Part shown: piece after piece, positions 284 through 41,029 of the stretch
Layout: each line of letters starts with the position of its first letter
How positions within the stretch are numbered: the stretch's first letter is position 1
NCBI GenBank assembly: GCA_032718475.1
Contig: JAUCBJ010007504.1
Coordinates: forward strand, 1-64,000
DNA from: Nemertoderma westbladi
Taxonomy: Eukaryota > Animalia > Xenacoelomorpha
Reading direction: 5' to 3'
DNA length: 64,000 bases
Made by a program: the position numbers and the translations under genes
The notes under the pieces: generated by a model
Seen by the model: the letters and a program-made list of their open reading frames with translations, nothing else
Database searches by the model: none
Told to the model about the DNA's origin: nothing

Positions 284-357
284 CCGAATTCAGCCACCGT
301 ACCTATCTCAGTATCTGTATAGTGTATAGTGCAGCTTCAACGTGAATAACGGTAATT

Positions 358-3669: not shown

Positions 3670-4250
3670 TGTGACGGGATCTACGGAGGATCCCGGTTTA
3701 TCCGGTTTTGGTTCTTTAATTACGCGTCCCCGCCGTGTGAATGAAAAGCGTTTTAATGTCAGATTAAGAGTTCTAATATTGTTGACGATGGTAGCTGGTA
3801 ATATATAATAGGATAAGCACAAACACAGTTATTATGAATGAGATATAAATGAACTGAATGATGGCGGCAGTGGACGGTATTAGAAGTCACCGCTGTGCCC
3901 TAACTGAACCGACTGACTGAATGAGATAACTGAACTAAATGACATGGTAGCTGGTAATATATTGCACGGTTGGCCGTATTACACTACCCAGCCGATGCCT
4001 TCCCCCCATTGGCTAATAACTCACTTGTCACCCTTCTACTTCCCCTGGGTGTGCTTCCCCCCCCCGCTGCTATCTCTCTCTCTCTCCCGGAGGTATAACC
4101 TCTGACCCCCGCTGTGTGTGTTCCCTTGGGGCCTATTGTCCCCGCTTATTGGGGTGATACAAGGTTGATTGGTAATCAACCTTGTAGTTCCAATATTGCT
4201 TAAAACCCGACTCTCTGTGGGCCTGGCTAGCGGAATTGAATACGCTAACA
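3670..4250 (-). repeat. 3' LTR of Bel/Pao copy 1 (581 bp)
   Basis: Minus strand begins TGTTAGCGTATTCAAT right after the PPT and ends GATCCCGTCACA; homologous to 30885-31427. Confidence 0.88.
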
Positions 4251-4936: not shown

Positions 4937-7514
4937 TTAGTTCGTTCCACCAGCCTTTGGGAACCACCTCAAGTCTTTCCCTCTGTCGTCCTCCTCCCTA
5001 GGTCGTTTCCTGGTCACTGCCGCTCCTTTGGTCTTGTCTGCTTTCTGGCTTCGGACTCTCGCCGCCACCTCCTTACTGATCCCGGTCGTCGACTCCTTGG
5101 GTGCTGGTGTTATTAGCTCCCGGTATCGCTTCGCGGGTGGCCCCTCCGAGTGGCCCTGCTGTCTCCCCCTGGTGGCGTCCCATAGGATCATCTTCATTGC
5201 CCGCGGCACATGCTCCGCCAAGAAATCCCTAAACTCTCCTCTGTTCTGTGGCGTCCACCTATCTAAATACCTCTGCGTATTTATCACTCCGGCATATGAT
5301 GCCGCCGTCGCCACTTCCTGGTAGGTAAACGGAAGCCTCCGTTTGATAATCTCCATGTGAGCCTCCTGATTGATGTTAAAGAAGCCCCACCGGAACTCCT
5401 GGGCCTTCATACGTTGCCGAGTCATCGCCCCGACGTCGGCCCACTCCTCGAAGATCCTAAACTTCTCTTCGTCGTCCATCCAGTCGCACTGGCGTCCGTA
5501 ATGTCCCCGAAAGTTACACTTCGAACATCGGTTATGCAACCGTGGACACGCCCCCATCCTGTGGCTCGACTCGCGGCAGTAGAGACAACTAGTCCCTTTC
5601 TGGAACCGGTACAAACAGCTCCTTTCCTGATGGGTCTGTCTCCCACAGTAGTCACAGCCGAGCACCAATGTCTCCCGCCCCACGTCGTCTTTCGTCCCAA
5701 GCGATCTCCGCGGTCTGTGGAGTCGTTGGTAAGCGAACTTCCGGACGTTAGCGTCCCTATCTACGTCGATCTCCTCGCCCCTCTCGGGCATCGTCTCCCC
5801 GAATACTACCCGTGGTGCCATCCCCGGTTGCTCGCCCAACCTGATAGTGCTCCCCGCGAAATCCATCGCCGGCTCCTCGTGCACCCAGGCCCGCTTGCCG
5901 GGTCTATCCCAGAAGGCCCTCGCCCCACTGGCCGTCACCACCCTCCCGCCAACCCAGTCCGTGTCCGAGTGGCCGATCCTCCCGATGGGCGGCATCTCCC
6001 CGAACTCGTCGTCGTCCTCGTCCTCCTCTGGGAGTGGCTCCAGCCCCGGTATCCCAGTGGACCCACTATGTCCCTTCCCGCCTTGGCTCTCGCCCGTAGC
6101 TCTCCATCCCTCTAGCTCCCCTAGCCTCCTTAGCGGCTGGTCGCCCTCGGCGCCCGCTGGTATGGGCGTCGTCTGCAATCCCGACGTCGACTGTTTCGGT
6201 GATCCCACCGTCCATCCCAGTTCTCGCCCTAGAGACTCCCCCGAACTCCCTGATGAAGTCCAACGAAGTTCGTCTAAGCCCGCCTGTTCCTCGAAGCCGT
6301 AGCTCTGTGCCCTAGCTTCCTCCTCCCTTTCCTCTGCTTCTCTCCTCTCCCATCTAGCGACTTCTTCCAGTCGCTTCGCCTCTCGTCTATCCGTCTCTAG
6401 CTGCTCCCATCTCTGATACGGCGTATCTATCTCCCCGTCTACCAGATGTCGGCTGTTGTAGTACACCGACTCGCCCTTCAGCCCCGGGTGGTCTACCAGA
6501 CCCACGAAAGCCGTCTTAAAGGCTCTTCTGTAGTTTAGGGGTGATCCCGATAATAGGAATGCCGCTGGTTCCCTCTCGATAACCACGGTCATGAATAGGT
6601 TAAGCAAACCTATCATTATCCAGTCCTCCTGCAGGATATATCGCTTCTGATATACCTTTATCGCTCCTCTTCGGAATTGATACACCTCTTGTTTCCCCGG
6701 CCTCGCTCCCCACTTCAGCGAGTTCGCTAATTCTGCTCCGTACTCTTCTCTGAACTTCCCCCAGTCCATTGGTTTGTGACATACGAGCCCCAATAGCTGG
6801 CCCATCGCCACCGCTCCGCAATGGCCTGTGTTCTCGACTAGTCCCAACCCGTCTGGTGCTGTCATAGCCATGAAGACCATCTGCATATCCAGGAGGTTGG
6901 GGGTGTCCGGACCGATGATTCTCTCCGCGTCATCGCGAATCGCCGATCCCACTTTCGTTGTCGACTTCTCTCTCACTAGGACTTGCACCGCCTTCGGCAA
7001 CCGGTTTAACTTCGGCCCGTCCTTCTTCCCATACATTCCCAGGTCAAATAGGAAAATATCCCCATTTGGCGCGGCCAAATGTAGGAGTATGGTTCTGGCC
7101 GATCCCGCCGATCCTCTCCTCGAACCCTCCTCGTCTTCCACGGTCCCTTCGTCGTCTAGGATCATCCTAGGGTCGTCCGCCTCCCCTGCTGACGGACTCT
7201 ACGAACCTCTTCCAATCTTTCCTCGGTGACTCTCTCGCATACTTCGGAATCCCGAACTTCTCCTCGTCTCCTTTCACCACGTAGTGGAAATGCTCGAAGA
7301 TCGCGTTGTCCAGCGATGGCGTCCCGTAGGTCCCGACCAGCCACTGTTCATGCACCTCCCTGAAATGGTCCTGTAGCGCTCGCGCTGCGTGACCCTTCTC
7401 TAACCGCTCGTAGTATCCCCTCGTCTTCTCTTCCGGATGCCTCTTGGTGAAATCCACCAGTATCTCCTTTCCTCCTAGCTCCGCCTTTCTCTTTCGCACA
7501 AGTTTGCCTGCCAT
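4937..7514 (-). pseudogene. Accessory ORF: DEDDy 3'-5' exonuclease + 3 CCHC zinc knuckles (frameshift near 7170)
   Basis: MAGKLVRKRK start at 7514; ILDDEG / LLHLAAPNGDIFLFDL / LPKAVQVLVREKSTTKVGSAIRDD / LLDMQ / QKRYILQED match WRN/EXD/Mut-7 exonuclease motifs; three CX2CX4HX4C knuckles at ~5485-5657; net +10-nt change relative to copy 2 shifts the frame. Confidence 0.8.
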
Positions 7515-8718: not shown

Positions 8719-11700
8719 TCAAGGCGCTCCCTCCAGCAGACAGCATTTCCCTACAGCCCTCCTGTAGGTCTTTCTGTCTTTCGCGCCTATCTTGCCACCT
8801 ATTCGCACTTCTACCGATCGGACTCTTCCGTCCTTATCGGAGTAAGTGCCCACAACTCTTGCCAACCACCATTGGTTGTTGATGATGGTATCGTCCGTGA
8901 CGATCACCAGATCACCCTCCTTTAACTCTCTACTCGTATTCCTCCACTTACTTCTACTATGTAGCGTGGGCAGATATTCCTCGACCCACCTCCTCCAGTA
9001 CTCTGCGCTTATCGCCTTAGTGACTTTCCAACTCTGGCGGGAGTGTATGTCATCTGGGTCTCCACCCCGCATGTCGATTGTCGCTGGCCTTTCCATTAGA
9101 AAGTGACTGGGCGTCAGCACGTCTAATGACTCAGGGTCATCATTCTCTGGATATAGCGGTCTGCTATTAATGATACCCTCACACTTTGCTAGTACTGTCC
9201 TTAATACGTCCTCTGTAACCATGTGGGTGTTCATCAACTTCGTCATCAGACGCTTCGAACTACCCACTAGTCTCTCGACGCATCCTAGGGTATGCGGAGC
9301 ATACGGCGTCCTCCTTTCCCACTTCACTTGTCGCCTTCTCATGGCTGCCCTGACTTCCTCCCCTTCCAGGATATCCAAGGCCTCTGCCATCTCGTTCTCC
9401 GCCCCCACAAAGTTGGTCCCGCTGTCAGAATACATTACTGCGATCGTCCCACCTTTGCGGTCTCTAAACCTTTCTAAAGCATTAATGAATGCTGATGCGG
9501 TTGCATCTTGGGTGAGTTCTATTCCTACCGCCCGCGTGTTGTTACATACGAAGATGATACCGTAGCGTTTCTCCGTGTGCCGCATCACCTTAATCTTTAT
9601 CGGCCCGAACATATCCACACCGCAATGCGTAAATGGCGGGTCGTGCTGTCTCACCCTACTGGCCGGTAGTGGCGCCATCTCCTGTATGGCTCGCTCCTTC
9701 TTCGCTCGTCGGCAGGTCTGGCACTGCCCCACTACCGCCTTTACCTTCTTCCTCAGTTGTTTGACCCAAAAGGTCCTCCGTATCTCCGTGAGGGTTCGGT
9801 TGGTGCCCCCGTGCAATATCGACTTGTGGGAGTCCCATATAATCTGGTGGACTATCGGCGATCCAGTAGGTATGATGATGGGTTTTGGCGGTATTACAAT
9901 ACTGTTGTTGTTCAATACCCTCGAGTTCATTACTAGAATCCCGTCATCATTAAGTTGTGGTGACAGCGTGATCAGCTCGCTGTCCCGTCGGAGATGCTGT
10001 TGTTTACCGACGCGTTCCACTTCGTCGCCGTAGTTCTTTCTCTGCTCGTAGCGGATGATTGCTTTGGCCGCTCCCTCCAGATCGATGGTTGTTCTAACTT
10101 TTACGTCTTTGTGGACTCCCTTGAGGAAATCCCCGAAGGCTCTCCAGTACGCCACTAACTTCTTGGTCTTGTACCAACTGGAGCTGTAGCTGAGGAGTTT
10201 ATCCGTCGGGTTATCGCACAGTTCTCCCGGTTTTGGTTGCACGTCCCTTATCTCCCTCACCATTTGGCTGTATATCTCTTCTCCCTCTGAATCTCCCTCT
10301 TCTTCCTCTAATGCTACTTCTCCTGAGCCCGGGTCCACCTTTCTCATCGGTGGCCAGGCTTCCTTATCGCTCAGAAACTGCGGCCCGTGTTGCCACAATA
10401 CCTCCTTCTTCAAGAAAGTGTGGCGTGCCACGCCCCTCGATAACAAGTCCGCTGGATTCTCGTCCGTTGGGCAGTAGTGCCACCTTTCTAACTCTGTAGT
10501 CGCCCTTATTTCGTCCACCCTATTTGCGACGAATATAGGGTATCTCGTCCTCTCGTTATGTAGCCAACCGAGCACTACCATGGAATCCGTCCAGTAGTGT
10601 GTTTCCACTATGTTGGGAATAGCGTCCACTAAGTAGGCTGTGGCCCTAACTCCTAATCTCGCAGCTGTCAACTCGAGTTTCGGAACTGATGCTGAATCTG
10701 GTGGCGTCGACTTCGCTTTACTGAATGCGAGTCTGGGCTTGTGAGCCCCCTCTCGTTGTACTAAGTAGAGTGCCGCTCCGTATGCCTCTAATGACGCATC
10801 GGAGAACATATGTAGATCCAGATTCGTCATGTCCCCATCCGGGAAATATACACGTGGCATGCTGTATGTTCCCATCTGCTCTAAACTCTCTGTCCACTTG
10901 TTCCATTGTTTACTAATTTCTTCCGGGACTTCTGTGTCCCACTCGTCCTTTAATTTGTATACTCTCTTGAGTATCTGTTTCCCCGTGACTAGTAATGGGG
11001 ATGCTAGGCCTAGGGGATCGTATATCCTCGCTATATACGACACATAGCCCCTCTTTGTGTGGATACCTGCGCCCTCCTGACTCAACTGGTATTTTAACTC
11101 GTCTGTCTCTCGGTTCCACACGATCCCTAGTGCCTTCTGCTGGGACTCCACTCTCTTGTTCGCCATGTCCTGTCCCTTGGCTGTCGTGGGATTATCCATG
11201 GTCGACTCTGGCCTCCTGTCCTCTATGGCTTTCATGAACTCTTGCGAGCTGGATTGGAACTTGGTTAGGTTGAACCCGGATCCTTTTAGGATGTCGCGAA
11301 CCTCGCGCCCCGTGTCCAGTAGCTCCTTAACCGTATTTCCAGACTCCATCCCGTCATCTACATAGAAACCTCGTCGAATCATATCGACGGCTTTGGCGCT
11401 GAATTTATCTTCCTTCCCTGCTACCGTGTCTCTTACGGCCATAGTCGTTGTAAACGAAGACGACTTGGCTCCCATATTCTGTACTATCATCTTATACATT
11501 GGTATGGTCGACGGTTCCTCATCGCCGTCGTACCATAGGAAGCGTTGGCTGTCGCTATCCTCTTCCGTTACACGGACTTGGTTGAACATGCCTTCGATGT
11601 CGCAGGTGAAAGCGTGTTTACCATTCCTGAATCTGAGTAGGACCTCGATCCCTGAGTTGTAGATGTTGGGACCCTCCAGCAGATAATCGTTTAGGCATTT

Positions 11701-14700
11701 TCCGTTGGTCTTGGCTGATGCGTCAACTACCATCCGCAGTTTACCTTTCTTCGGGTCTATAGCCACGTGGAGTGGCAGGTAATAGGTCCTGTCCGTGTTT
11801 GGTTCGTCGACCGGTAACTCCACGGCCCATCCTTTCTCGACATACTTTCTAATTGTCTTGTGGATGTACTCATTCTTCTCGGGGCTCCGTTTTAACGTCT
11901 GCTTTAACTTGCGAAGCCTCGTAAGTACCATCCCTTTGTTGTCGGGTAAGGTAGCTTCGGTAGCTTCCATACCATCCCTATGGTATACCGCCCCTCATCG
12001 CATGTCATCGATTCCTTTACACTTTGTAAAGCCTGCTTGTCTTCTACCGAGGTTCCGACCCCGGTCTCCTTTAATCCCTCAAAATCATGCCTGAGCAGTC
12101 TCCTGAGCTGCTCCTCTGCTCCCTCATCCTCCATCTCTCGCATAGTTCCCGCGAACATGCATCCTGATGTCTCTGACATCCTAAATGGTATCTTACTCTT
12201 AATTGGGCCACTCAGCGTCCATCCAAATTGTGTTAGTATCGCCACCGGGTCACACTGCCTGTCTTCGCCGAAGACCATTTGCATTCTCTCGTGGGCCGTC
12301 GGGCAGTCCATTCCTACTATGATGGATACCTTCCTGACGTCCACCTCTGGGATTGAGAAGTCGATACTGTCCAGGAATCTATATTGTTCGACCTCGATGT
12401 TAGTTGGCCGCCTGGCGTATATATTTATCGACTCTATCACCTGGATGGGGTCGAAGGTCGCCCCATAGTCGCATCCCGGTGCCACCGCTGCTATCGCGCA
12501 CCATCCGGTTCTCATCTCCAGGACTTCATCTCTGCTGGAGATGGTTGTCACTGCCATTCTACTTGGCCTCGTTCTCAATCCTATCTCTTCGGCCACCCAA
12601 TTCTCGATTAGTGTGAAGGCTGCACCACTGTCGACCGGCATCAGTGTGGTTACTGATCGATTGCCTTCCCCGATTATCCTTACTGGTACTACCCCCAATA
12701 GTACCGTTCCTCTCTTCTTTGCTCCCACGGTGCTCGTTGCCATCGTCTGGCCTTTACTTTGATCGAACTTAATCGGCATTTCCTTGCATTGTCTAGCTCT
12801 GTGTCCACTCATCACACATCGCGAGCAGATCTCATTTCTCGCCGCCTATTCTACCTGATCTTCCCTGGGTAGCGCTTGCCAGTACCTGCAGTTCTGATGA
12901 AGCGCATTTGAATGTAGCTGGCATTTGCTCTTTGGATCATAGCTGTCCTTATACAGTGCATTGCGTATCGCAGTTGCATTTGTCCCAAAGTCCCTACTAT
13001 TCTTGTTGTTTGGGCTCGGCCTACCGGGCGTACTGGGGTTATGTTTGTCTGTGTTGTTATTTTTCCCCTGTCCGCTCCATGATGTGGTCTTACCCCCGGC
13101 TACCTGTGGACTAGCAGTCCCCTGCGTCGCTGCGTATGGCAGTGATTGTCTGAGCTTCGGCAATGCGTTCGACGCGTTGTGCTCTGGTTTCGGTTTGTGA
13201 TAATCGGTCTTTGATCCCTTTCCCAGGCTATCCTCGCTGTAGACTGGGTCCGTTATAAGTTCAGCTTCATAGTTTAAGAAGCTTGACATCTCTTCTAAAC
13301 CTGGTTCCGCACCCTTCCTATCTCGAGTGGAGAAAGCGATTTTCCTCCACTTATTGCGCAGCCACATTGGTAGTGCCTGGGCTATCGTGGTGATGTTGTT
13401 GGACGCGTTGAGTTCATATGGCGCATCCAGTGTCTTTAGCACGATTTGCGCCTTCTCGACTTTGTTAGCGAATGTCTTTATGCTAACGGGGTTATCCTGT
13501 AGGCCACCCGATGTTATACCTCTCAGGGTCTGCCGGATGATCTTGGCCGGGTGCCCGTATTCCCTGTCTAACGCCCGCCATGCCATCGTGAAGCCACCCT
13601 CGATGCCCTGGTATTGCCTCACGATGTCGTATGCTGGGCCCCCTGTATATACTTGCAGATACTTTAGGCACTCCGCCTGCGTCAAATTCTTTGTTAATAT
13701 TTCGTTACTCTACATGCGCCGAAACTGTAGGTATTCTTCCGGCCTACTTCCATCGAATTTGAATGGTTCCACGGGTGGTAACTCGATCCTTGTTTTTAGT
13801 GCATCGATTAACGTGGCCATCCCCATCGCTTGCGCTTCCAATGGGTTCGATGGATGCTGCATAGGTTCTCCCGTTGGGTGCGGTCCATTCATCCTGTTTG
13901 CTGCTTTCCTCTGACTTGGATATATCATAGGGGGTAGCGGCCCCCTCCATATTTCGGTGTTGCATGATCTATTCTCGTCCAAGGGGTTCGATGTTCTTAC
14001 TCCTATTGGGGTACATTGTTGATATTATGATGGGGGAATGTCACCCTGTCTCCCCCCCCACCGGTATGTTTGGTACTGGGGTTGATGTTAATATATTGGG
14101 GCCCATGCATCTATCCGCAATAATCCCCCCCTCCCCTGGGTATATGTTATGTCCTTGCATGCTGTAGTCATACTGCTGTGCTGGTACCGGTATAGGCCTA
14201 TCTACTTCTGGCCTCCCTGCCGGTATATACTCCGCGACTTCCGGGTTTAATCCCATTGTTCGCGCTATCCTATCGCCTATATTATCTCTCTCAGCGTGGT
14301 CTATGGTATGTGCAGTAAGGCCTACAGTATGTTCTGCAGTCTGTATGTGTCGCTCGGGATCGAAGTTTAATCTTCTCGAGTGATCCTCCCCGCGGCTACC
14401 GTATTCTCGATCGGTAGGTATATCCCGTCGGGAAGTTTCTCTTCGACCCCCTCTACTGCTCTCGTTCTCGTACCGGTACATCCCGTACCCCTCTCTCTGC
14501 ACGCAATGCGCCTCGTCAGGTCGCGTTCCTCCGGGGCGACGGCAATCTCCTGAAGTTCGACCCCTCTTACTCTCCATCTCCACCTCCACTACCGACGGCT
14601 CACTATCCGTCCTCGCTCTCCTGTCGTTCGCGGCGACACTTCTTCTACTCTCTTCCTTTCTTCTCTCCGCAGTGCAGTATTCCCGCTCGGGAGATCTCTC

Positions 14701-15112
14701 GTCGACCTCTCGGTTAAACTCCACTGTTCTTCTTCCCTCTTCTGATCGGGCTCGACGCTTCGTCCGCCCTCTCGCGACGTCAACCTGTCTCTCTCTGCTC
14801 GATTGCACGCCACTGGGGATACTCGCAATCCCCCTATTACTCTCCGTCGCCAGGTGTTGCGGTTTACCTATCTCGGCCCGCGCATTATCCGTCGACGCCT
14901 GTGGGGCACTCTCTGCCCCCCCCCCCCCTCTCGCCGCTAACTTGCTGTTGTGGGGCTCCTGTAGCCCCCCCCCCCCCCCACTCGCCACATCTAACTTCAC
15001 TATCTCTTACTTCGCTACTACACCCCCCTCTAGCCGACACATCAACCCTACTGCGGCTGGGTCCATTCACCCCCGCCTCTTCCTCTGCCACTGTGTGGCC
15101 TACCAGGCCCTC
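8719..15112 (-). pseudogene. Bel/Pao gag-pol polyprotein with stops and frameshifts
   Basis: Gag LPPVEPFKFDG and CSRCVMSGHRARQC knuckle; protease VDSGA; RT YYLPLH, CDIEGMF, YVDD; RNase H FSDAS, PKLEL, WTDS; integrase VDMFGP, SDSGTNF, VERLV; in-frame stops at 13710 and 12846; frameshifts near 14050 and 11970. Confidence 0.93.
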
Positions 15113-23665: not shown

Positions 23666-26444
23666 ACCGGCATATAAGATGGTAGTAAAAAACATGGGGG
23701 CCAAGTCGTCTTCATTTGCGATGACTATGGTAGTGAGAGACACAGTTAAGGGAAAAGAAGATAGATACAGCACTAGGGCCGTCGATATGATTCGACGTGG
23801 TTTCTACATAGACGACGGAATGGGGTCTGGAAATACGGTTAAGGAGATACTGGACACAGGGCGCGAGGTTCGCGACATCCTAAAAGGATCCGTCTTTAAT
23901 CTGACCAAATTCCAATCCAGTTCGGAAGAATTTATCAAGGCAATAGAAGACAAGAGGCCAGAATCGACCATGGATAATCCAACAACAGTCAAAGGGCAGG
24001 ACATGGCGAATAAGAGAACACAATCTCAACAGAAGGCATTGGGAATCGTGTGGGATAGAGAGACAGACAAATTGAAGTATCAGCTGAGCCAGGAGGGCGC
24101 AGACACCCATACAAAGAGGGGCTATGTATCGTATATAGCAAGGATATACGATCCCCTAGGCCTAGCATCCCCATTATTAGTCACGGGGAAACAGATACTC
24201 AAGAGAGTATACAAATTGAAGGATGAGTGGGACGTAGAGGTACCAGAGGAAATCAAGAAACAGTGGAACAAGTGGACAGGAGACTTGGAGAAGATGGAAA
24301 CATACGACATGCCACGTGTGTATTTCCCGGATGGGAACATGACGAATCTGGACTTACACATGTTCTCCGATGCGTCGCTGGAGGCGTACGGAGCGGCACT
24401 CTACTTAGTACAACGAGAGGTGGCTCAAAAGCCCAGACTAGCCTTTAGCAAAGCAAAGTCGATGCCGCCAGATTCAGCATCTGTTCCCAAGTTGGAATTA
24501 ACAGCTGCGAGACTAGGAGTTAGAGCCACAGCCTACCTAGTGGATACTATTCCCAACATAGTGGAGACACACTACTGAACGGACTCCATGGTAGTGCTTG
24601 GTTGGCTACATAACGAAAGGACAAGATACCCGATATTCGTCGCGAATAGAGTGGACGAAATAAGAGCGACCACAGAACTGGAAAGGTGGCACTACTGCCC
24701 AACAGACAAGAACCCAGCGGACTTGCTGTCGAGGGGCGTGGAACGCCACTCTTTCTTGAAGAAGGAAGTATTGTGGCAACATGGGCCACAATTTCTGAGC
24801 GATAAGGAGGCCTGGCCGCCGATGAGAAAGGTGGAGCCGGGCTCAGAAGTAGTGTCAGAGGGAGAAGAAGGAGATTCAGAGGGAGAAGAGATATACTCCC
24901 AGATGGTGAGGGAGATTAGGGACGTGCAACCAAAATGAGAACTGTGCGATAACCCGACGGATAAACTCCTCAGCTACAGTTCTAGTTGGTATAAGACCAC
25001 GAAACTAGTGGCGTACTGGAGAGCTTTCGGGGATTTCCTCGCGGGAGTTGGCAAGGACAAGAAGATCAGGACAACCATAGATCTGGAAGGAGCGGCCAAG
25101 GCAGTGATCCGCTATGAACAACGGAAGAACTACGGCGACGAGGTGGAACGCGTCGGTAACCAACAGCACCTCCGACGGGACAGCGAGCTGATTACGCTGT
25201 CGCCACAACTCAATGACGATGGGATTCTAGTAATGAATTCTAGGGTGGGATATAACAACAGCATAGTCGTACCACCGAAACCCATCATCATTCCCACAGG
25301 ATCGCCAATAGTCCACCAGATTATCTGGGACTCCCACAAATCAATTTTGCATGGGGGCACCAACCAAACCCTCACAGAGATAAGGAGGACCTATTGGGTC
25401 AAACAACTGAGAAAGAAGGTAAAAGCGGTAGTGGGGCAGTGCCAGACCTGCCGACGAGCGAAGAAGGAGCGAGCCGTACAGGAGATGGCACCACTACCAG
25501 CGAGTAGGGTAAGACAGCACGACCCGCCATTTACGCATTGCGGTGTGGACATGTTCGGGCCGATAAAGATCAAAGTGATGCGACACACGGAGAAACGCTA
25601 CGGCATTATCTTCGTATGCAACAACACACGGGCAGTGGGGATAGAACTCGCCCAAGATGCAACCGCATCAGCATTCATTAATGCCTTAGAAAGGTTTAGA
25701 GACCGCAAAGGTGGGACGATCGCAGTGATATACAGCAACAACGGCACCAACTTTGTGGGCGCAGAGAGTGAGATGGCGGAGGCCTTGGACATCTTGGAAG
25801 GGGAGGAAGTCAGGGCGGCCATGAGACGACGACAGGTGAAGTGGGAGAGAAGGACGCCGTATGCACCACATACACTAGGATGCGTCGAGAGACTGGTGGG
25901 CAGTTCAAAGCGTCTAATGACGAAGTTAATGAACACCCACATGGTCACGGAGGACATCTTGAGGACAGTGCTTGCAAAGTGTGAGGGCATCATTAATAGT
26001 AGACCGCTATATCCGGAGAATGATGACCCTGAGTCACTAGACGTGCTGATGCCTAGCCACTTTCTGATGGAAAGGCCAGCAACCATCGATATGCAGGGTG
26101 TAAACCCAGATGACATACACTCTCGCCAGAGTTGGAAAGTCGCTAAAGCAATAAACGCAGAGTATTGGAGGAGGTGGGTCGAGGAATACCTACCCACGCT
26201 CCATAAAAGGAGTAAGTGGAGGAAACAAAATAGGGAGTTAAGAGAGGGAGATCTCGTAATCGTTACGGATGATACTATCATCAACAACCAGTGGCGGTTG
26301 GCGAGAGTTGTAGGCACCTACTCCGACGAGGACGGAAGAGTCCGATCGGTAGAAGTGCGGATAGGTGGCAAGATAGGTGCGAAGGACAGAAAAACCTACA
26401 GGAGAGCTGTGGGAAAATGCTGTCTGTTAGAAGGGGCACCTTAG
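23666..26444 (+). pseudogene. Bel/Pao pol fragment (RT C-terminal half, RNase H, integrase)
   Basis: YIDD, FSDAS, PKLEL, VDMFGP and VERLV motifs; in-frame TGA stops at 24576 and 24936; integrase SDSG changed to SNNG. Confidence 0.92.
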
Positions 26445-26594
26445 TAGAGTTAGAGAAAAGTTTAGTCGTCCAAGTTTTGGACTGAGGGGGGTGGGATTGA
26501 GGGCGAGACGCCCTTCCCACACAAATAAAATAAAATAAAATAAAAATAATAGTACGTAGTAGGTACGCAGTTAATAGGCAGAAGGTAGAAGTTG

Positions 26595-27135
26595 TTAGAA
26601 GGTACGTAGTACCTAGAGTTAGTTAATTAGTTAGGAGGTACGTAGTACCGTTAGGTTAGAAGAGTTAGAGGGTACGTAAGTACTGATAGTTAGTTAGAGT
26701 TAGAGTTAGAGGGTACGTAAGTACTGATAGTTAGTTAGAGTTAGAGTTAGAGGGTACATAAGTACCGCTAGTTAGTTAGAGTTAGAGTTAGAGGGTACGT
26801 AAGTACCGCTAGTTAGTTAGAGTTAGAGTTAGAGGGTACGTAAGTACCGCTAGTTAGTTAGAGTTAGAGGGTACGTAAGTACCGCAAGTTAGTTAGAGTT
26901 AGAGTTAGAGGGTACGTAGTACCGTTAGTTAGAGAAGAGTTAGAGTTAGAGGGTACGTAGTACCGTTAGTTAGAGAAGAGTTAGAGTTAGAGGGTACGTA
27001 GTACCGTTAGTTAGAGGAGAGTTAGAGGGTACGTAAGTACCGCTAGTTAGTTAGAGGAGAGTTAGAGGGTACGTAAGTACCGCTAGTTAGTTAGAGAAGA
27101 GTTAGATGGTACGTAGTACCGTTAGTTAGAGAGAG
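26595..27135. repeat. Internal tandem repeat (~31-37-bp unit)
   Basis: GTTAGAGTTAGAGGGTACGTAAGTACCGCTAGTTA variants, ~14 copies; homologous to the reverse complement of 8010-8570. Confidence 0.92.
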
Positions 27136-27630
27136 AGAGAGTAGGAGGTAGAAGGGTATATAAGATATATATATTAGTTAGCAGTAAGTAGCGTTAGTAG
27201 CGAGAGGGGGGCATATGAGTACAGCTGGATAAATCTTGTGGCCACACGACGCATACTGCTGTACTACATAGGCCCACAGAGTAGGCCAGAATGTGGATTA
27301 GAGAATAGAATAATCCATAGGCAACAGTAAGTAGTAGGACAGTAGGATTGAAATCAAAATAGATAAATAAATAGAATGGAGCTGAAAGTTACAAAATAAC
27401 GGCAACACAAGGAAAGTTGTTCTAGAACATAATAAAAGTAACGGACGGAAATTGTAAATTAGGCTCATTTACTAGCTTCAAGATTAATTAGCAATAAATT
27501 TAGGTTAAAAGGCGCAGTTAAGTAGAAATAGGCCATTATCGAACCGTACAGAACATCCTAGATACATCACTCATCTGTATTGCGCCTTAGTAAGGCACCA
27601 CCTTGCAGGTGAGCGAGTGTAGTGTTTGGA

Positions 27631-30177
27631 ATGGCGAGCAAGCTGATCAGAAAGAGGAAAGCGGAGTCAGGAGGAAAGGAGATACTGGTGGATTTCACCG
27701 AGAGGCATCCGGAAGAGAAGACGAAAGGATACTACGAGAGGTTGGAAAGGGGTCACGCGGCACGAGCGCTGCAGGATCACTTCCGGGAGATGCACAAACA
27801 GCGGCTGGTCGGGACCTACGGGATGCCGTCGCTGGACAACGCGATCTCCCGACACTTCCACTACGTAGTGAAAGGGGACGAGGCGAAGTTCGGGATTCCG
27901 AAATACCCGAGGGAATCACCGAGGAAGGACTGGAAGAGATTCATAGAGTCCGTCAATAGGGGAGGATATATGATCCTAGATGACGAGGGAACCGTGGAAG
28001 ACGAGGAGGGTTCGAGACGAGGATCGGCGGGGTCGGCCAGGACCATACTCCTACATTTGGCCGCGCCAAATGGGGACATCTTCTTATTCGATCTAGGAAC
28101 GTATGGGAAGAAGGACGGCCCGAAATTAAACCGATTGCCGAAAGCGGTACAAGTCTTGGTAAGAGAGAAGTCGACGACGAAAGTAGGATCGGCGATTCGC
28201 GAGGATGCGGAGAGAATCATCGGTCCGGACGCCACCAACCTCCTGGATATGCAAAAGGTCTTTATGGCTATGATGGCACCGGATGGGTTGGGGGTAGTCG
28301 GAAACACAGGCCAATGCGGGGCGGTGGCTATGGGCCAACTATTGGGGCTCGTGTGTCACAAACCGATGGACTGGGGGAAGTTCAGGGAAGAATACGGAGC
28401 AGAACTAGCAAACTCGCTAAAGTGGAGAGCGAGACCGGGAAAACAAGAGGTATATCAATTCCGCAGAGGAGCGATAAAGGTATATCAGAAGCGATATATC
28501 CTTCAGGAGGATTGGATGATGATAAGTTTGCTCAACTTATTCATGACCGTGGTTATCGAGAGGGAACCAGCGGCATTTCTATTATCGGGATCACCCCTAA
28601 GCTACAGGAGAGCCTTTAAAGTGGCCTTCGACGGTCTGGTAGACCACCTGGGGCTGAAGGGCGAGTCGGTGTACTACGACAGCCGACATCTAGTAGACGG
28701 GGAGATAGATACGCCGTATCAGAGATGGGAGCAGTTAGAGACGGATAGACGAGAAACAAAGCGACTGGAAGAAGTCGCTAGACGAGAGAGGATAGAAGCA
28801 GAGGAGAGGGAAGAGGAGGCCAGGACACAGAGTTACGGCTTCAAGGAACAGGCAGGCTTAGACGAGCTTCGTTGGACTTCATCGGGGAGTTCGGGTGAGT
28901 CTCTAGGGCGAGAACTGGGATGGACGGTGGGTTCACCGAAACAGTCGACGTCGGGGTTGCAAGCGATGCCCATACCAGGGGGCGCCGAGGGCGACCAACC
29001 ACTAAGAAAGTTAGGGGAGCTAGAGGGATGGAGAGCCACGGGCGAGAGCCAAGGCGGGAAAGGACATAGTGGATCCATCGGGATACTGGGGTTGGAACCA
29101 CTGTGAGAGGAGGATGAGGACGACGACGAGTTCGGGGAGATGCCGCCCATCGAGAGGATAGGCCACTCGGACACGGACTGGGTTGGCGGGAGGGTGGTGA
29201 CGACCAGTGGGGCGAGAGCCTTCTGGGAAAAACCCGGCAAGCGGGCCTGGGTGCATGAGGAGCCGGTGATGGATTTCGCGGGGAGCACTATCAGGTTGGG
29301 CGAGCAACCGGGGACGGCACCACGGGTAGTATTCGGAGAGACGATGCCCGGGAGGGGCGAGGAGATCGACGTAAACAGGGACGCTAAAGTCCAGAAGTTT
29401 GCCTATCAGCGACTCCACAGACCGCGGAGATTGCTTGGGACAAAAGACGACGTGGGGCGGGAGACCTTGGTACTCGGTTGCGACTACTGTGGGAGACAGA
29501 CCCACCAGGAAAGGAGCTGCTTGTACCGGTTCCAAAAGGGAACCTTTTGTCTCTACTGCCGAGAGTCGAGCCACAGGATGGGGGCGTGTCCACGGTTGCA
29601 TAACCGATGTCCAAAGTGCAACTTTCAGGGACACTTCGGACGCCAGTGCGACTGGATGGACGACGAAGAGAAGTTCAGGATCTTCGAGGAATGGGCCGAC
29701 GTCGGGGCGAGGACCCGGCAACGCATGAAGGCCCAGGAGTTCAAGTGGGGCTTTTTCCTTATCAATCAGGAGGCTCACATGGAAATCATAAAGTGGAGGC
29801 TACCGTTTACCTATCAAGAGGTAGCAACGGCGGCGTCGTATGCCGGAGTGATGAACACACAAAGATACTTGGACAGATGGAGCCCACAGAATCGAGGGGA
29901 GTTTAGGGATTTCTTGGCGGAGCACGTGAAACGAGCAATGAAGATGATCCTATGGGACGCCACAAGGGGGAGACAACAGGGCCACTCGGAGGGGCCACCG
30001 GCGAAGCGGTATCGGGCACTAATAACACCAGCGCCCAAGGAGCCAACAACCGGAATCAGCAGGGAGGTGGCGGCGAAAGTCCGAAAGCAGAAAGCGGATC
30101 CCAGAGGGGCGGTGGTAACCAAGAAACGACCCAGGGAAGAGGACGCCAGGGGGAACTATCCCCAGAGGAACAGATAG
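27631..30177 (+). pseudogene. Accessory ORF: DEDDy exonuclease + 3 CCHC knuckles (~848 codons, one in-frame TGA at 29104)
   Basis: MASKLIRKRK start; ExoI D-x-E at 27979-27987, ExoII D at 28204, ExoIII YILQED at 28495-28512; knuckles 29479-29649; the 27622 and 29140 ORFs share one frame. Confidence 0.82.
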
Positions 30178-30884
30178 GCTTACAGAGCCGAGGGAGAGAA
30201 ATTGGGACTTGGACGTGGTACGCCTGGAAGGCGCCGCGTGGGACGTACGAACTATTAAGTACAAATTTAATTAATGCAAATAATCATAATAAGTGCAATT
30301 TGTATGTACGTACGTAGTAATTAGCAGTAAAATACATACGTTCGGAGTAAGTACTATAGTCATACAACCTTTCTCAATTAGCTACTGGGACTGGGGGGAT
30401 AACTGACTATAGCACTATGGACGAGACACCAGACGATTTCACACTTCTTGAGTGCGACGGCACAAAAGGGGGGGGAGATTTGTCAGAAGGGGTGAGGAAG
30501 TCGAAGTGGGGTTGAGGGACGGAGTAATGGTGCAAAGTGCGGAGAGAGTGCGGACGCAATTCTAGTGTGGGGGGGGGGGAATGAGAGTTTGAGTGAAGGA
30601 CGAGGAGGTCCGAGGGTATGTGAGAGTTGGAGTGAGAGTGGAAGAGAGATAGGGCGAAAGTGTTGGGGAAACAAAAGTTGCGCGAGAGGTAAGCGCAATC
30701 GGCCCGACATGAGACACCAGGCATTAGGGTAGCGTTATCATACCCATAGGGAGCGGCCTGGACAGCCGACTCCGTGAGAAAAGATTTCCACCCCACACCC
30801 GATACTAGATCGGGATCCCGCGGGATTGCAGCGCACTTTTTGGTTGATGCTATCTTCTTACCGGGAAGATAGCATGGGGGGGAG

Positions 30885-31427
30885 TGTTAGCTTATTCAAT
30901 CCCGCTAACACCCTATAAATGTTAAGCCGATAAGCAATATTGGGGGCCACGAGATTGGGGTAATAACCAACTCGTGTCACCCCAACAAAATGGGAAGGTG
31001 AACAACACAACAAGGGTCAGGGGCCAAACCCCTAACCCAGAGAGAACAGGTGGAGTGAAGGGGATCACTCCAAGGGCGCCAACAAGGGTATCAACCAATC
31101 AGAGGGGGGGAAGCATCGATTGAGTAGCAATAAGGCCACCGTGCAATATAACCAGTAACCTGTAATCATATCACTTCAGTTATCTATTGGTGCTAGTTAG
31201 GTTAGTTAGTTTAGCTAGGGAAGGACCGGGACTTTAGTTACCGTATCCCGCCTTCTGCATACAACAACGTTATCTCAATTACACCTATATCTATATACCC
31301 TATATATCTATATCAGTCATTATATACAACGAACGACACGGATTCCCTTTTCTACCTTTCATACACACGGTGGGGACGAGTGAACTAAACAACAGATAAA
31401 TCGGGATCCTTCCTGGATCCCGTCACA
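30885..31427 (+). repeat. 3' LTR of Bel/Pao copy 2 (543 bp)
   Basis: TGTTAGCTTATTCAAT...GATCCCGTCACA immediately after GGGGGGGAG PPT. Confidence 0.88.
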
Positions 31428-32038
31428 GAAAACAAATCCAGAACAATTAAAATACATTTTACAACACTTAACATTATATAAGTATAATATATAATTATGG
31501 GAAAGGGTAGCAGCCAATAGCATAGCTAGTCGAGGGCTGCTACCGGTGGGAGGGTTTGGGGGATGGGGGGGGGGGGGGGGGGGGTGGGGTGGGGAGTGTG
31601 AGTGGGGTTTGGACTGTGACTTTACAATTTTGAACTTAACTTAAATTTTGTGGTCGTTTTTTTTTCAGTTAGCAGAAAATATCTAGATTCTTGTAGTCTA
31701 CACATCACCTGGCATAAACTAATCGGACGCACACACACAGTCGCACAGAGCTACAACAGGAATTAACAATTATTTAAAATTATAATGTTAGACCTGTTGT
31801 TTCCTTGTCCTGTTGTTTGAACGTACTACATATGTATTCTAGAATACACTATTTTATGAATTGTGCTAAAGTCAAGCAATGGAAAAAACGTGGCAAAAAC
31901 GCGGTGAAAACGTGGAAAAAAAGCGGCCAAAAATAAGGCAACCAAAATGGTCCTTAACGAAATAGGAAATGTCAGAGAACAACTGTTATTCTCATCCTAA
32001 ACCAATTATTCAAACCATTATTGGAATCCTGAAATAAT

Positions 32039-32902
32039 TAGGGTGGTGGGCTTTTCACTTTTTTTCGATTTCATTGTTCTACCGGTGCACAAAAGTTGAT
32101 AAATGGTAAAAAAGTAAGGCAAAAAAAATTATTTAAATTTCGTCTATATCTTCACGGATCCCAAGAGGGTTAAATTTTGAGCCGTCGCGATGCACCATAA
32201 TGAGATATATAACAATATAACACATTGATAAAAGATCAATGACTCAAAGAAAGAACTTCCTGCATGCATCAAATGTGATCAAATGGGTCCAAACTTAGTT
32301 AGATAGTTGGGACTAAGGGAAGTAGTGCCACAGGCACATAGCCAGAACCTACCCTTTGGCACAAGTGACTCTTATTCTCAATTTTGGTGATGGACAACTT
32401 TTAGGCTATAAAAAGGCTGTAATGTAGACTTGTGTCTGACTTCACTTTTTCTGCGATATCTCAAGAACTATTCGCTCTACGTTTGTTTTGAAGGTGTCTA
32501 CCCCCACTAAGTCGGTCATTGCGGTTATAATGTGCATAATATTAATGCCGTAGGAGAACTCAAAGTTGGCCATCGCGAAAATTGAGAATAATCTAGTGGC
32601 ACTAGTTCCATTGATCCAAAAAATTAAATTTTGGTATCTAACTAGGTTTGGACCAATTTGAAGACATTTGATGCAGGGAAGAAGTTCCTTCTTGAGTCTT
32701 TGATCTTTCATCAATGTGTTATATTGTTATATATCTCATTATGGTGCATCGCGACGGCTCAAAATGTCAACCCTCTTGGGATCTGTGAAGATATAGAGGA
32801 AATTTAAAGAAATTTTTTTTGCTTTATTTTTTTACCATTTGGCAACTTTTGTGCACCGGTAGAACAATGAAATCGAAAAAAAGTAAAAAACGAACCACCC
32901 TA
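32039..32902. mobile_element. Non-autonomous DNA transposon with ~265-bp TIRs, hAT-like
   Basis: TAGGGTGGT...ACCACCCTA termini; long imperfect inverted arms; 8-bp flanks GAAATAAT / GAAATCAT (1 mismatch). Confidence 0.8.
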
Positions 32903-33471: not shown

Positions 33472-33755
33472 CCTTTTTGTAGTAGCATGTAAAATTATAT
33501 TTGAGACGATAACACTCAATAGTTTAACCACTTAAAAACAATAACTTCATATCAACACTAAATGATTAATATTGATTTAGTACATAAATGTATTAATGTT
33601 ATGTTATATTAAATTGTTATTATTATTTTATATCCACAGTATTGAATCGCAAACTTTCAACATTAAACTCAGATTCACCTGTAATGATTGGACTGGAAGG
33701 ATAAAGTAACGAACAATAATTATTATAATATATTCAAATGCGTGATCCAAGAAAA

Positions 33756-35754
33756 TTAGAAGGATCTTACCTACAACCCTGCCTCTTGTACAGGTACTAC
33801 TATAATACCAGTAGTCCAGGACTTCGGTAAGTATCCAATTAGAAGGATCTTACCTACAACCCTGCCTCTTGTACAGGTACTATAATACCAGTAGTCCAGG
33901 CCTTCGGTAAGTATCCAATTAGAAGGATCTTACCTACAACCCTGCCACTTGTACAGGTACTATAATACCAGTAGTCCAGGCCTTCGGTAAGTATCCAATT
34001 AGAAGGATCTTACCTACAACCCTGCCACTTGTACAGGTACTATAATACCAGTAGTCCAGGCCTTCGGTAAGTATCCAATTAGAAGGATCTTACCTACAAC
34101 CCTGCCACTTGTACAGGTACTATAATACCAGTAGTCCAGGCCTTCGGTAAGTATCCAATTAGAAGGATCTTACCTACAACCCTGCCACTTGTACAGGTAC
34201 TATAATACCAGTAGTCCAGGCCTTCGGTAAGTATCCAATTAGAAGGATCTTACCTACAACCCTGCCTCTTGTACAGGTACTATAATACCAGTAGTCCAGG
34301 CCTTCGGTAAGTATCCAATTAGAAGGATCTTACCTACAACCCTGCCACTTGTACAGGTACTATAATACCAGTAGTCCAGGCCTTCGGTAAGTATCCAATT
34401 AGAAGGATCTTACCTACAACCCTGCCACTTGTACAGGTACTATAATACCAGTAGTCCAGGCCTTCGGTAAGTATCCAATTAGAAGGATCTTACCTACAAC
34501 CCTGCCACTTGTACAGGTACTATAATACCAGTAGTCCAGGCCTTCGGTAAGTATCCAATTAGAAGGATCTTACCTACAACCCTGCCACTTGTACAGGTAC
34601 TATAATACCAGTAGTCCAGGCCTTCGGTAAGTATCCAATTAGAAGGATCTTACCTACAACCCTGCCACTTGTACAGGTACTATAATACCAGTAGTCCAGG
34701 CCTTCGGTAAGTATCCAATTAGAAGGATCTTACCTACAACCCTGCCTCTTGTACAGGTACTATAATACCAGTAGTCCAGGCCTTCGGTAAGTATCCAATT
34801 AGAAGGATCTTACCTACAACCCTGCCACTTGTACAGGTACTATAATACCAGTAGTCCAGGCCTTCGGTAAGTATCCAATTAGAAGGATCTTACCTACTAC
34901 CCTGCCTCTTGTACAGGTACTATAATACCAGTAGTCCAGGCCTTCGGTAAGTATCCAATTAGAAGGATCTTACCTACAACCCTGCCACTTGTACAGGTAC
35001 TATAATACCAGTAGTCCAGGCCTTCGGTAAGTATCCAATTAGAAGGATCTTACCTACAACCCTGCCACTTGTACAGGTACTATAATACCAGTAGTCCAGG
35101 CCTTCGGTAAGTATCCAATTAGAAGGATCTTACCTACAACCCTGCCACTTGTACAGGTACTATAATACCAGTAGACCAGGCCTTCGGTAAGTCCAATTAG
35201 AAGGATCTTACCTACAACTCTGCCACTTGTACAGGTACTATAATACCAGTAGTCCAGGCCTTCGGTAAGTATCCAATTAGAAGGATCTTACCTACAACCC
35301 TGCCTCTTGTACAGGTACTATAATACCAGTAGTCCAGGCCTTCGGTAAGTATCCAATTAGAAGGATCTTACCTACAACCCTGCCACTTGTACAGGTACTA
35401 TAATACCAGTAGACCAGGCCTTCGGTAAGTATCCAATTAGAAGGATCTTACCTACAACCCTGCCACTTGTACAGGTACTATAATACCAGTAGTCCAGGCC
35501 TTCGGTAAGTATCCAATTAGAAGGATCTTACCTACAACCCTGCCTCTTGTACAGGTACTATAATACCAGTAGTCCAGGACTTCGGTAAGTATCCAATTAG
35601 AAGGATCCTTACCTACAACCCTGCTACTTGTACAGGTACTATAATACCAGTAGTCCAGGCCTTCGGTATGTATCCATTTAGAAGGATCTTACCTAAAACC
35701 CTGCCACTTGTACAGGTACTATAATACCAGTAGACCAGGCCTTCGGTAATTATC
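33756..35754 (+). repeat. 80-bp satellite A, ~25 highly homogeneous copies
   Basis: AGAAGGATCTTACCTACAACCCTGCCACTTGTACAGGTACTATAATACCAGTAGTCCAGGCCTTCGGTAAGTATCCAATT in strict tandem. Confidence 0.97.
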
Positions 35755-36485
35755 CTCAAAATTATAATTTATGAGCCAAAGTTCTAAAATATTTCTAAAA
35801 TGACCCCCCCCCCCCCTGGACCAATTGCATTGTAAAATAGTCCGGGCCAGATAGGGTTTAATATTCTGCTATACGGTTGCTTTAAAGTATATCGTATCAT
35901 AATTCTATATGAAAAATAAATAAAGAATACGATATTATATATCTGGGTAAAAAGTCGGATTGGGCTGAGGCTGGTGGAAGGGTGGAGCTGGAGCCACAGC
36001 GGGTGGTATAGGGAGGAGCGGTTGGATTGGGCTGAGGCTGGTGGTAGGGTGGAGCAGGAGCCACAGCGGGTGGTGTAGGCAGGAGCAGGTGGATTGGGCT
36101 GAGGCTGGTGGAAGGGTGGAGCTGGTGCCACACCGGGTGGTTTAGGGAGGGGCAGTTGGATTGGGCTGAGGCTGGTGGAAGGGAGGAGCTAGAGTCACAG
36201 CGGGTGGTATAGGGAGGAGCAGTTGGATTGGGCTGAGGCTGGTGGAAGGGTGGAGCTGGTGCCACAGCGGGTGGTATAGGGAGGGGCAGTTGGATTGGGC
36301 TGAGGCTGGTGGAAGGGTGGAGCTGGTGCCACAGCGGGTGGTATAGGGAGGGGCAGTTGGATTGGGCTGAGGCTGGTGGAAGGGTGGAGCTGGAGTCACT
36401 GCGGGTGGTATAGGAAGGAGCAGTTGGATTGGGCTGAGGCTGGTGGAAGGGTGGAGCTGGTGCCACAGCGGGTGGTATAGGGAGG

Positions 36486-40800: not shown

Positions 40801-41029
40801 GACATACACCTACAAGTACACATACACCTACACTTGAGGAGTTACCAGTTAGATCCCCACCTGTAGGAGTTCCTTCACACATACACGATTACCGGTCCGC
40901 TGATTAACTGAGCACTATGTAGCACTGTTACTGCCGTAGGCCTACCTACTGCAACCAACATACATTTTACATACTGACCGCGGTCCTACAATGCCGAGCC
41001 CCGGCTCCAGTTGATATCGATATTCAACT

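What the first reader, a model, noticed from the sequence alone, without database searches (positions are those of the whole stretch)
27631..30177. Bel/Pao retrotransposon carries a DEDDy exonuclease-zinc-knuckle gene in the env slot
Seen: both Bel copies have an ~850-codon same-strand ORF between pol and the 3' LTR with no signal peptide or TM helix. It has WRN/EXD/Mut-7-type motifs (MILDDEG; LLHLAAPNGDIFLFDL; LPKAV...TKVGSAIRED; LLDMQ; QKRYILQED), an acidic linker, three CX2CX4HX4C knuckles and basic NLS-like ends. Known: host relatives (Mut-7/Nibbler, EXD1) act in piRNA/siRNA pathways, and tandem knuckles bind RNA (Air/ZCCHC type). DEDDy ORFs have been reported in some Ty3/Gypsy elements (C. 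elegans Cer1, bdelloid rotifer elements); I know of no Bel/Pao case with knuckles. Inference: a transposon-encoded counter-silencing nuclease that trims or degrades small RNAs, or a cDNA-processing enzyme.
Basis: partly seen in the sequence, partly recalled or inferred. Interest (0 to 1): 0.85.

Follow-up and report, generated by a model that had tools for sequence, protein, structure and literature searches.

The report
Bel/Pao retrotransposon exonuclease–zinc-knuckle accessory gene
A jumping-gene family in an animal genome keeps a conserved extra gene where retroviruses carry env, encoding three zinc knuckles joined to a very divergent, likely RNA-trimming enzyme domain; similar extra genes are known from another retrotransposon group, and its job is untested.

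Summary
The third gene is real. Two inverted copies of one Bel/Pao family carry it between pol and a 3' LTR-like repeat. It evolved under purifying selection close to that on pol (dN/dS 0.10 against 0.06–0.09).

Corrections: neither copy is intact (B stops at codon 492, A breaks frame near 7180), neither shows a 5' LTR, and the Cer1 precedent was not supported in the papers checked.

The three CCHC knuckles are certain. The DEDDy exonuclease fold is likely (about 0.8). It rests on a language-model hit to PF01612 (0.93) and a colinear motif chain (1 of 2000 shuffles). Pfam, profile and homologue searches found nothing, and the supporting AlphaFold model was alignment-guided. The last catalytic Asp position holds Glu in both copies, so activity is uncertain.

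Best reading: a knuckle-guided 3'→5' RNA exonuclease, built like trypanosome TbRND, serving the element. Counter-silencing has no direct support. DEDDy ORF3s are published for bdelloid Juno/Vesta elements, and this scan noted similar genes in other genomes' LTR elements. The Bel/Pao host plus knuckles was not found in print. Verdict: new variant of a known kind.

The parts
27631..30177 (+). ORF3 of copy B, 848 codons, broken by one in-frame stop at codon 492 (29104-29106)
   Evidence: dN/dS against copy A 0.097 (0.07-0.135) over 727 codons from Met114 on
27631..27969 (+). N-terminal region (residues 1-113), basic RKRK cluster, no known family
   Evidence: dN/dS 0.114 over 111 codons; Pfam only E 0.11 or worse
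27925..28566 (+). Likely DEDDy 3'-5' exonuclease domain (residues 99-312). Predicted site: D117 (27979), E119 (27985), D192 (28204), Y289 (28495), E293 (28507, Glu in place of the usual Asp)
   Evidence: dN/dS 0.08
28666..29310 (+). Charged Glu/Arg-rich stretch (about residues 365-400), then Gly/Ser-rich linker with a short acidic run (residues 346-560)
   Evidence: sequence; dN/dS 0.138
29479..29649 (+). Three tandem CX2CX4HX4C zinc knuckles starting at 29479, 29548 and 29608
   Evidence: kept in both copies; Atlas leads are all CCHC-type proteins, best score 0.89
29671..30000 (+). Conserved domain after the knuckles (residues 681-790), no known family
   Evidence: dN/dS 0.04, the lowest in ORF3; no Pfam hit
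23673..26444 (+). Copy B pol fragment (RT, RNase H, integrase), 5'-truncated and broken
   Evidence: 88-94% amino-acid identity to copy A pol
26594..27129 (+). 41-bp minisatellite (13.7 copies) between pol and ORF3; a related 48-bp array in copy A
27200..27330 (+). Conserved island behind a TATA-like run that folds into two hairpins in both copies; candidate cis signal
   Evidence: fold z -3.7 (B) and -3.9 (A); alignment; no Rfam match
27555..27630 (+). Conserved island before the ATG: hairpin and a weak candidate splice acceptor (shared AG near 27593)
   Evidence: z -3.0 in B, -1.3 in A; untested
30847..30884 (+). Perfect 11-bp hairpin, identical in both copies, followed by the polypurine tract
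30885..31427 (+). 3' LTR-like repeat of copy B (TG...CA, 543 bp); element end at 31427
   Evidence: loose ends with mixed flanks behind 31427 and fall of cover
4937..7514 (-). ORF3 of copy A; frame break near 7180; open from Met114-equivalent (7165) to the stop
8719..15006 (-). Copy A gag (DUF1759), aspartic protease and pol (Pao peptidase A17, RT, RNase H, integrase, DUF5641), in several broken frames
3670..4250 (-). 3' LTR-like repeat of copy A (581 bp), about 78% alike to that of copy B over aligned columns

Best explanation
ORF3 is a conserved accessory gene of this Bel/Pao family that encodes three zinc knuckles joined to a likely WRN/EXD2-type 3'-5' exonuclease domain, and it likely works as a knuckle-guided trimmer of single-stranded RNA 3' ends for the element's benefit. 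Shown: position, conservation, purifying selection, knuckles, no membrane helix. Inferred: the fold; that the knuckles hold RNA while the domain removes nucleotides from the 3' end, as in trypanosome TbRND; that Glu293 stands in for the last catalytic Asp and leaves at least weak activity; that the protein is nuclear (basic clusters); and that it is made from its own subgenomic message. The likeliest substrate is the element's own RNA or the RNA in its particles; host small RNAs are the second choice.
For: Selection: dN/dS 0.097 over 727 codons, 0.08 in the exonuclease region and 0.09 in the knuckles, against 0.059 and 0.089 in pol; mismatches by codon position are 31/34/151 over an ungapped 2129-nt block. 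14 of the 19 variant places inside ORF3 that one search listed are third positions (only 40 of about 1265 places were shown). Long residence in the element: dS 0.42-0.63 against 0.61-0.72 in pol, and the same purine-rich strand (A+G 0.62-0.63 against 0.60 in gag/pol, 0.53 in the Gypsy element nearby, 0.50 in the TRAF-like frame). Fold: Atlas first hits PF01612 at 0.93 with 172-181 of 256 features shared, 25 of 30 hits. An unfiltered HMM from 68 such domains gave 4.5 bits, with 0 of 2000 full and 1 of 2000 local shuffles as high. The Exo III spacing (aromatic-x4-aliphatic-x3-Q-x2-Y-x3-acid) occurs once, against 50 of 100,000 shuffles. In the alignment-guided model, AlphaFold made the strand before D117 although no bacterial row reached that strand, and the model aligns from residue 1 to WRN residue 64, which puts D117 on WRN D82 if colinear. 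D117, E119, D192, Y289 and E293 are the same in both copies. Architecture precedent: TbRND joins a DEDD exonuclease to four CCHC fingers that raise RNA binding and cleavage (PMC7797062, passages).
Against: No sequence relative was found: Pfam 0 hits for the domain, 0 of 7991 and 0 of 363 candidates, 0 among 1.84 billion representatives. Profile-profile probability was only 7.9% (P 0.0044, 68 columns, with a motif-selected set). In the chain test the Exo I, SL and Exo III blocks score below zero on their own. The single-sequence model failed (pLDDT 36) and matched no nuclease. The good model (pLDDT 67, Z 11.7 to WRN, rmsd 3.0 over 158 residues) was fed 59 exonuclease rows, so it is largely circular. 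Exo III reads YILQE where the family has YAATD. A 270-residue linker separates the domain from the knuckles, against about 28 residues in TbRND. Nothing here shows expression, activity or substrate. Both window copies are broken and no intact copy was seen.
Confidence: 0.5

Rival explanations
1. The domain has the exonuclease fold but little or no activity, and the protein is an RNA adaptor that exports, protects or localises the element's genomic RNA, in the manner of Egalitarian or Cer1 CERV.
For: Exo III has Glu for Asp and bulky residues for the usual two Ala in both copies. Three knuckles and a strongly conserved domain after them (dN/dS 0.04). Conserved hairpins in the leader and before the purine tract could be binding sites. 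Egl binds localisation stem-loops, including that of the I-factor, without its putative catalytic residues (PMC13186709, passages; PDB titles). CERV in the env slot of Cer1 is needed for gRNA export (PMC10309623, passages).
Against: D117, E119, D192 and Y289 are all kept and the fourth position is still an acid. Bdelloid ORF3s also carry an Asp-to-Glu change (DEED) and were read as possibly active (PMC5408684).
Confidence: 0.25
2. A counter-silencing nuclease that shortens or destroys piRNA/siRNA or their precursors.
For: Structural neighbours include Nibbler/Mut-7 and Exd1 (Z 10.4-10.6, alignment-guided). The family is represented by thousands of divergent contigs in three runs, so it spread well. 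PMC5408684 raises a silencing role for such ORFs.
Against: No closer link to Mut-7/Nibbler than to WRN, NrnC or polymerase proofreading domains: the top 20 rows lie within about 1.3 Z. No small-RNA data. dN/dS near 0.1 shows no sign of an arms race, although two copies cannot show site-level positive selection. In bdelloids such ORFs gave no clear copy-number gain.
Confidence: 0.15
3. A DNA 3' exonuclease that proofreads or trims the cDNA ends during reverse transcription or integration.
For: WRN and polymerase proofreading domains top the alignment-guided match. Some Dada DNA transposons carry a DEDDy domain thought to process 3' ends (PMC3706591, passages). CCHC knuckles also bind ssDNA (own knowledge).
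Against: It is a separate gene, not part of pol. Bel/Pao elements generally replicate without it (own knowledge). The WRN match is biased by the alignment used.
Confidence: 0.07
4. The region is not an exonuclease at all and the motif likeness is chance.
For: All standard searches were blank. Shuffled proteins reach Atlas 0.9 in 4-10 of 100 cases. The family for the tests was chosen after the motifs were seen.
Against: Atlas recognition 2906 with 172-181 shared features; the chain test at 1 of 2000; the Exo III spacing; all motifs in the right order.
Confidence: 0.12

Closest known systems
DEDDy ORF3 of bdelloid rotifer LTR retrotransposons Juno and Vesta, shared with Athena/Terminon elements (PMC5408684; main text read, parts 1-3 of 5; PMC6431247 and PMC5718144, passages)
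   Same: [quoted passage not shown]
   Different: Host element here is Bel/Pao. The Glu is at the last position (DEDE), not the third (DEED). The text read mentions no CX2CX4HX4C knuckles in ORF3. Homology between the two could not be tested (no rotifer sequences at hand).
TbRND, trypanosome mitochondrial RNase D with four CCHC fingers (PMC7797062, passages; PDB 7c42-7c4c)
   Same: DEDD exonuclease followed by tandem CCHC knuckles; matched by the alignment-guided model (Foldseek E 3.9e-5, Z 10.4).
   Different: Cellular gene; four fingers on a short linker against three on a 270-residue linker; no sequence match; probably convergent architecture.
WRN / EXD2 / Mut-7 (Nibbler) exonuclease domains, Pfam PF01612
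   Same: Order and spacing of Exo I, the two strands, the KVG...D Exo II segment and the Exo III helix.
   Different: About 15-23% identity to bacterial WRN-like proteins, below Pfam detection; two insertions between Exo II and Exo III; Glu in Exo III.
CERV of C. elegans Cer1 (PMC10309623, passages) and Egalitarian (PMC13186709, passages)
   Same: CERV is a nuclear accessory protein from the env slot of an LTR element; Egl uses an exonuclease-homology domain non-catalytically on RNA stem-loops.
   Different: CERV is not described as an exonuclease; Egl is a host protein with LOTUS-like domains. No sequence link to either was tested or found.
Dada DNA transposons with an inserted DEDDy domain (PMC3706591, passages)
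   Same: Transposon-borne DEDDy DnaQ-like domain.
   Different: Inside a DDE transposase, all four acids kept, DNA transposon.

Membership tests
Bel/Pao LTR retrotransposon | Pao-type gag-pol domains (DUF1759, protease, RT, Peptidase_A17/RNase H, integrase, DUF5641) in the order PR-RT-RH-IN | tested here: met
   on copy A; copy B pol 88-94% identical
Bel/Pao LTR retrotransposon | Two LTRs with target-site duplication | tested here: inconclusive
   One TG...CA repeat behind a purine tract in each copy, with a sharp element end at 31427; no 5' partner in the window, so no duplication can be read
env gene | Signal peptide and membrane anchor | tested here: not met
   best hydropathy window 1.35, basic N-terminus
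DEDDy 3'-5' exonuclease (PF01612) | Score above the Pfam cut-off | tested here: not met
   0 families at E up to 10 for three cuts of the domain
DEDDy 3'-5' exonuclease (PF01612) | Exo I DxE, Exo II D and Exo III Y-x3-D in order | tested here: inconclusive
   D117/E119, D192 and Y289 present in both copies; the last position is E293, with D at the next residue
DEDDy 3'-5' exonuclease (PF01612) | DnaQ/RNase H-like fold | tested here: inconclusive
   Atlas 0.93; guided model Z 11.7 to WRN but largely circular; unguided model unusable
DEDDy 3'-5' exonuclease (PF01612) | Metal-dependent 3'-5' activity | not testable with these tools
   needs an assay
CCHC zinc knuckle array | CX2CX4HX4C spacing, repeated and conserved | tested here: met
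   three in both copies; at most one in 20,000 shuffles; Pfam zf-CCHC-type hits only weak
Bdelloid-type retroelement DEDDy ORF pool | Groups with the Juno/Vesta/Athena ORFs in a tree | not tested
   no such sequences were retrieved
Mut-7/Nibbler orthologue | Closer to Mut-7 than to other DEDDy families; Nibbler N- and C-terminal domains | tested here: inconclusive
   Z to Nibbler 10.4, WRN 10.5-11.7, NrnC 11.4; flanking regions match no family

The most novel reading that the evidence does not exclude
A Bel/Pao retrotransposon encodes its own zinc-knuckle-guided exoribonuclease that attacks the host's small-RNA silencing guides: a transposon anti-piRNA enzyme, with a non-canonical DEDE active site and an architecture reached independently of trypanosome TbRND.
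Probability: 0.15. Interest if true: 0.85.

Novelty: new variant of a known kind. Interest (0 to 1): 0.55.

Why it matters
Exonuclease genes in the env slot are published for bdelloid Juno/Vesta elements, with no function shown. A case in Bel/Pao, under selection as strong as pol and fused to RNA-binding knuckles, suggests that unrelated LTR lineages repeatedly recruit a 3' trimming module. The knuckles give a handle on the substrate that the rotifer ORFs lack. If the target is host small RNA, it would be an enzymatic transposon counter-defence in an animal. If it is the element's own RNA, it points to an unrecognised step in the LTR cycle. The protein has no detectable relative among 1.84 billion representatives, so such genes are easily missed by annotation.

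Tried and rejected
Searches for relatives, all blank: the search for homologous proteins with copy A from Met114 (0 of 7991 candidates, lengths 408-1299) and with the knuckle region (0 of 363, lengths 195-623); phmmer of residues 1-365 over 1.84 billion representatives (0); metagenome and viral contigs (110 and 3 pattern matches, none confirmed); PDB sequences (best E 0.12, unrelated); plasmids and phages by tblastn (best E 0.2 and 2); PHROGs (none for the domain). These collections hold few animal transposons, so a blank does not show that the gene is unique.

Single-sequence AlphaFold: pLDDT 36; its fold searches gave no match at E 0.001 and best Z 4.7. Uninformative.

A shuffle null for hhalign timed out. 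The first chain test had one block wrongly defined (3 of 1500 shuffles) and was redone. MAFFT first put Exo I on the second acidic motif, D124/E126. I prefer D117/E119 because a hydrophobic strand precedes it and the model placed a strand there; residue-level geometry could not be inspected.

No RNA holder was listed among sequencing runs, so expression is open. No listed contig bridges pol and ORF3, so linkage rests on the two window copies. No whole genome is held. Rfam: no match in 26400-31600.

Rejected: env (no anchor); chance frame (dN/dS); a recent separate insertion into one copy (colinear in both copies at a similar dS; no dedicated search for terminal repeats around ORF3 was completed); Cer1 as a DEDDy precedent.

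Literature searches for a Bel/Pao case: searches found none. The term 'bel pao' scored 0 in every listed row, so the search probably cannot match the slashed spelling. Repbase and supplements were not seen and may hold such an element.

Full report
ANATOMY. The window holds two inverted copies of one element, 84% alike over 7.4 kb. Copy A (minus strand, about 15200 to 3670) has gag, protease and pol with the Bel/Pao marker domains DUF1759, Peptidase_A17 and DUF5641. Copy B (plus strand, 23673-31427) starts inside RT. In both, pol is followed by a minisatellite (41 and 48 bp units), a leader of about 500 nt, a third frame, a 700-nt untranslated stretch, a hairpin, a purine tract and a TG...CA repeat (30885-31427; 4250-3670). 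Neither repeat has a partner at the 5' end. Contigs from public runs cover all of copy B, stop at its end, and in one run 5 contigs continue behind 31427 into unlike flanks. The element is thus a widespread mobile family ending there. Summed contig depth is no copy number, but ORF3 is covered as fully as pol (run X3: about 26,000-51,000 over ORF3, 39,000-79,000 over pol, 120 in the flank). A TRAF-like frame at 346-1794 fits an animal host.

IS ORF3 A GENE? Yes. Neither copy is whole: B has a stop at codon 492, and A leaves the frame near 7180. But codon comparison of the two copies gives dN/dS 0.114 for residues 1-113 and 0.097 (bootstrap 0.07-0.135) for the rest, against 0.059 and 0.089 for pol. 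Every subregion is below 0.18, and the domain after the knuckles is lowest (0.04). Synonymous divergence (0.42-0.63) is near that of pol (0.61-0.72), and the strand has the element's purine bias, so the gene was in the element before the two lineages split. Of 19 variant places inside ORF3 listed from other contigs, 14 are third positions. It is not env: no hydrophobic anchor (best window 1.35).

KNUCKLES. Three CX2CX4HX4C motifs at residues 617, 640 and 660 are kept in both copies; 1 of 20,000 shuffles has even one. Atlas leads for this region are CCHC proteins, all under 0.9.

EXONUCLEASE DOMAIN. Standard searches fail: Pfam, 5.8 billion clusters by word index, 1.84 billion representatives, PDB sequences. 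Support comes from four weaker lines. (1) The ESM Atlas gives PF01612 clusters at 0.93, with 172-181 of 256 features shared and 25 of 30 hits. (2) I collected bacterial WRN-like exonucleases (three of the loci checked as PF01612; closest solved relative WRN, E 4.5e-17). The seed set came from a recalled motif and is biased at Exo II, so the tests used the 68 domains, which were not selected by that motif although found with one seed. An unfiltered HMM scores copy B at 4.5 bits, with 0 of 2000 full and 1 of 2000 local shuffles as high. Three of the seven blocks score below zero alone, and the family was chosen after the motifs were seen. (3) Exo III keeps the family spacing F277-x4-I282-x3-Q286-x2-Y289-x3-E293 (50 of 100,000 shuffles). 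(4) AlphaFold with 59 bacterial rows trimmed to start after Exo I gave pLDDT 67 and made the strand before D117 from the two copies alone. The model matches WRN (Z 11.7, rmsd 3.0, 158 residues), NrnC, Exd1, Nibbler and TbRND, over its whole length. This is largely circular, and the unguided model failed. I put the fold at about 0.8. The predicted site is D117, E119, D192, Y289 and E293, the same in both copies. The last acid is Glu instead of Asp, so activity may be reduced or absent.

EXPRESSION. Unknown; no RNA run was listed. The leader has two conserved islands: one behind a TATA-like run, folding into two hairpins (z -3.7 and -3.9), and one before the ATG with a hairpin and a weak shared acceptor AG near 27593. 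A subgenomic message is inferred from the 1.2-kb gap to pol and from the statement in PMC5408684 that ORF3s are typically separate, spliced units.

MECHANISM. The best reading (0.5) is a knuckle-guided 3'-5' exoribonuclease: the knuckles hold single-stranded RNA and the domain trims its end, as shown for TbRND, whose CCHC fingers raise binding and cleavage (PMC7797062, passages). The substrate is inferred, most simply the element's own RNA. Rivals are a non-catalytic RNA adaptor like Egl or CERV (0.25; PMC13186709 and PMC10309623, passages), a counter-silencing nuclease (0.15), a cDNA-trimming enzyme (0.07; compare Dada, PMC3706591, passages), or no exonuclease (0.12). Nothing ties the domain to Mut-7/Nibbler more than to other DEDDy families.

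PRIOR KNOWLEDGE. PMC5408684 (main text read, parts 1-3 of 5, plus passages) describes DEDDy ORF3s in bdelloid Juno and Vesta elements and Terminons, with a DEED change and no shown activity; 'BEL', 'Pao' and 'Cer1' do not occur in it. PMC6431247, PMC5718144 and PMC6338049 (passages) repeat this. Searches found no Bel/Pao case, but they handle the slashed name badly and do not reach Repbase or supplements. Earlier notes of this scan (unchecked) report Rrp6-like, DEDDh and zinc-knuckle third ORFs in LTR elements of other genomes; none held all my search words, and no look-alike sequence was found. The theme recurs; what is new here is the Bel/Pao host, the fusion with three knuckles, the DEDE site and the extreme divergence.

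VERDICT. Observation partly confirmed; a real accessory gene; new variant of a known kind; interest 0.55. It would deserve 0.85 if it proves to be an anti-small-RNA enzyme (probability about 0.15).

Noticed in passing
window 42947-48210: A Ty3/Gypsy-type element on the minus strand with one 1609-codon frame (RT, RNase H, integrase) and two identical 227-bp repeats: probably very young and intact.
   Followed up: partly
window 19746-22306: An intron-less dUTPase (19746-20387, minus; Pfam E 6.6e-16) head to head with an AT-rich 518-codon frame of no known family (20750-22306), just left of the truncated end of copy B. May be a piece of a DNA virus or large DNA transposon; by eye the long frame has two PC4-like segments (recalled, untested).
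   Followed up: partly
window 33754-40801: An 80-bp array (25 copies, 33754-35755) and its inverted counterpart (9 copies, 40052-40801) enclose 67-bp arrays: a foldback-like structure of about 7 kb.
   Followed up: no
window 30847-30875 and 4260-4288: A perfect 11-bp hairpin directly before the polypurine tract, identical in both copies although the surrounding untranslated region is only about 76% alike; candidate packaging or plus-strand priming signal.
   Followed up: partly
window 27200-27330 and 7825-7955: Conserved double hairpin behind the minisatellite and a TATA-like run (z -3.7 and -3.9); no Rfam family.
   Followed up: partly
window 15651-16315 and 37918-38586: A 670-bp dispersed repeat at 82% identity, one copy lying where the 5' LTR of copy A would be expected.
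   Followed up: no
window 346-1794: Long single frame for a TRAF6-like protein (RING, TRAF fingers, coiled coil, start of MATH), about 1.9 kb from the 3' end of copy A.
   Followed up: no
window 18472-19389: 305-codon frame for a low-complexity, charged protein with an Ala/Glu/Lys repeat; no family.
   Followed up: no
window 32039-32305 and 32635-32902: Inverted repeat of about 270 bp at 91% identity, MITE-like.
   Followed up: no
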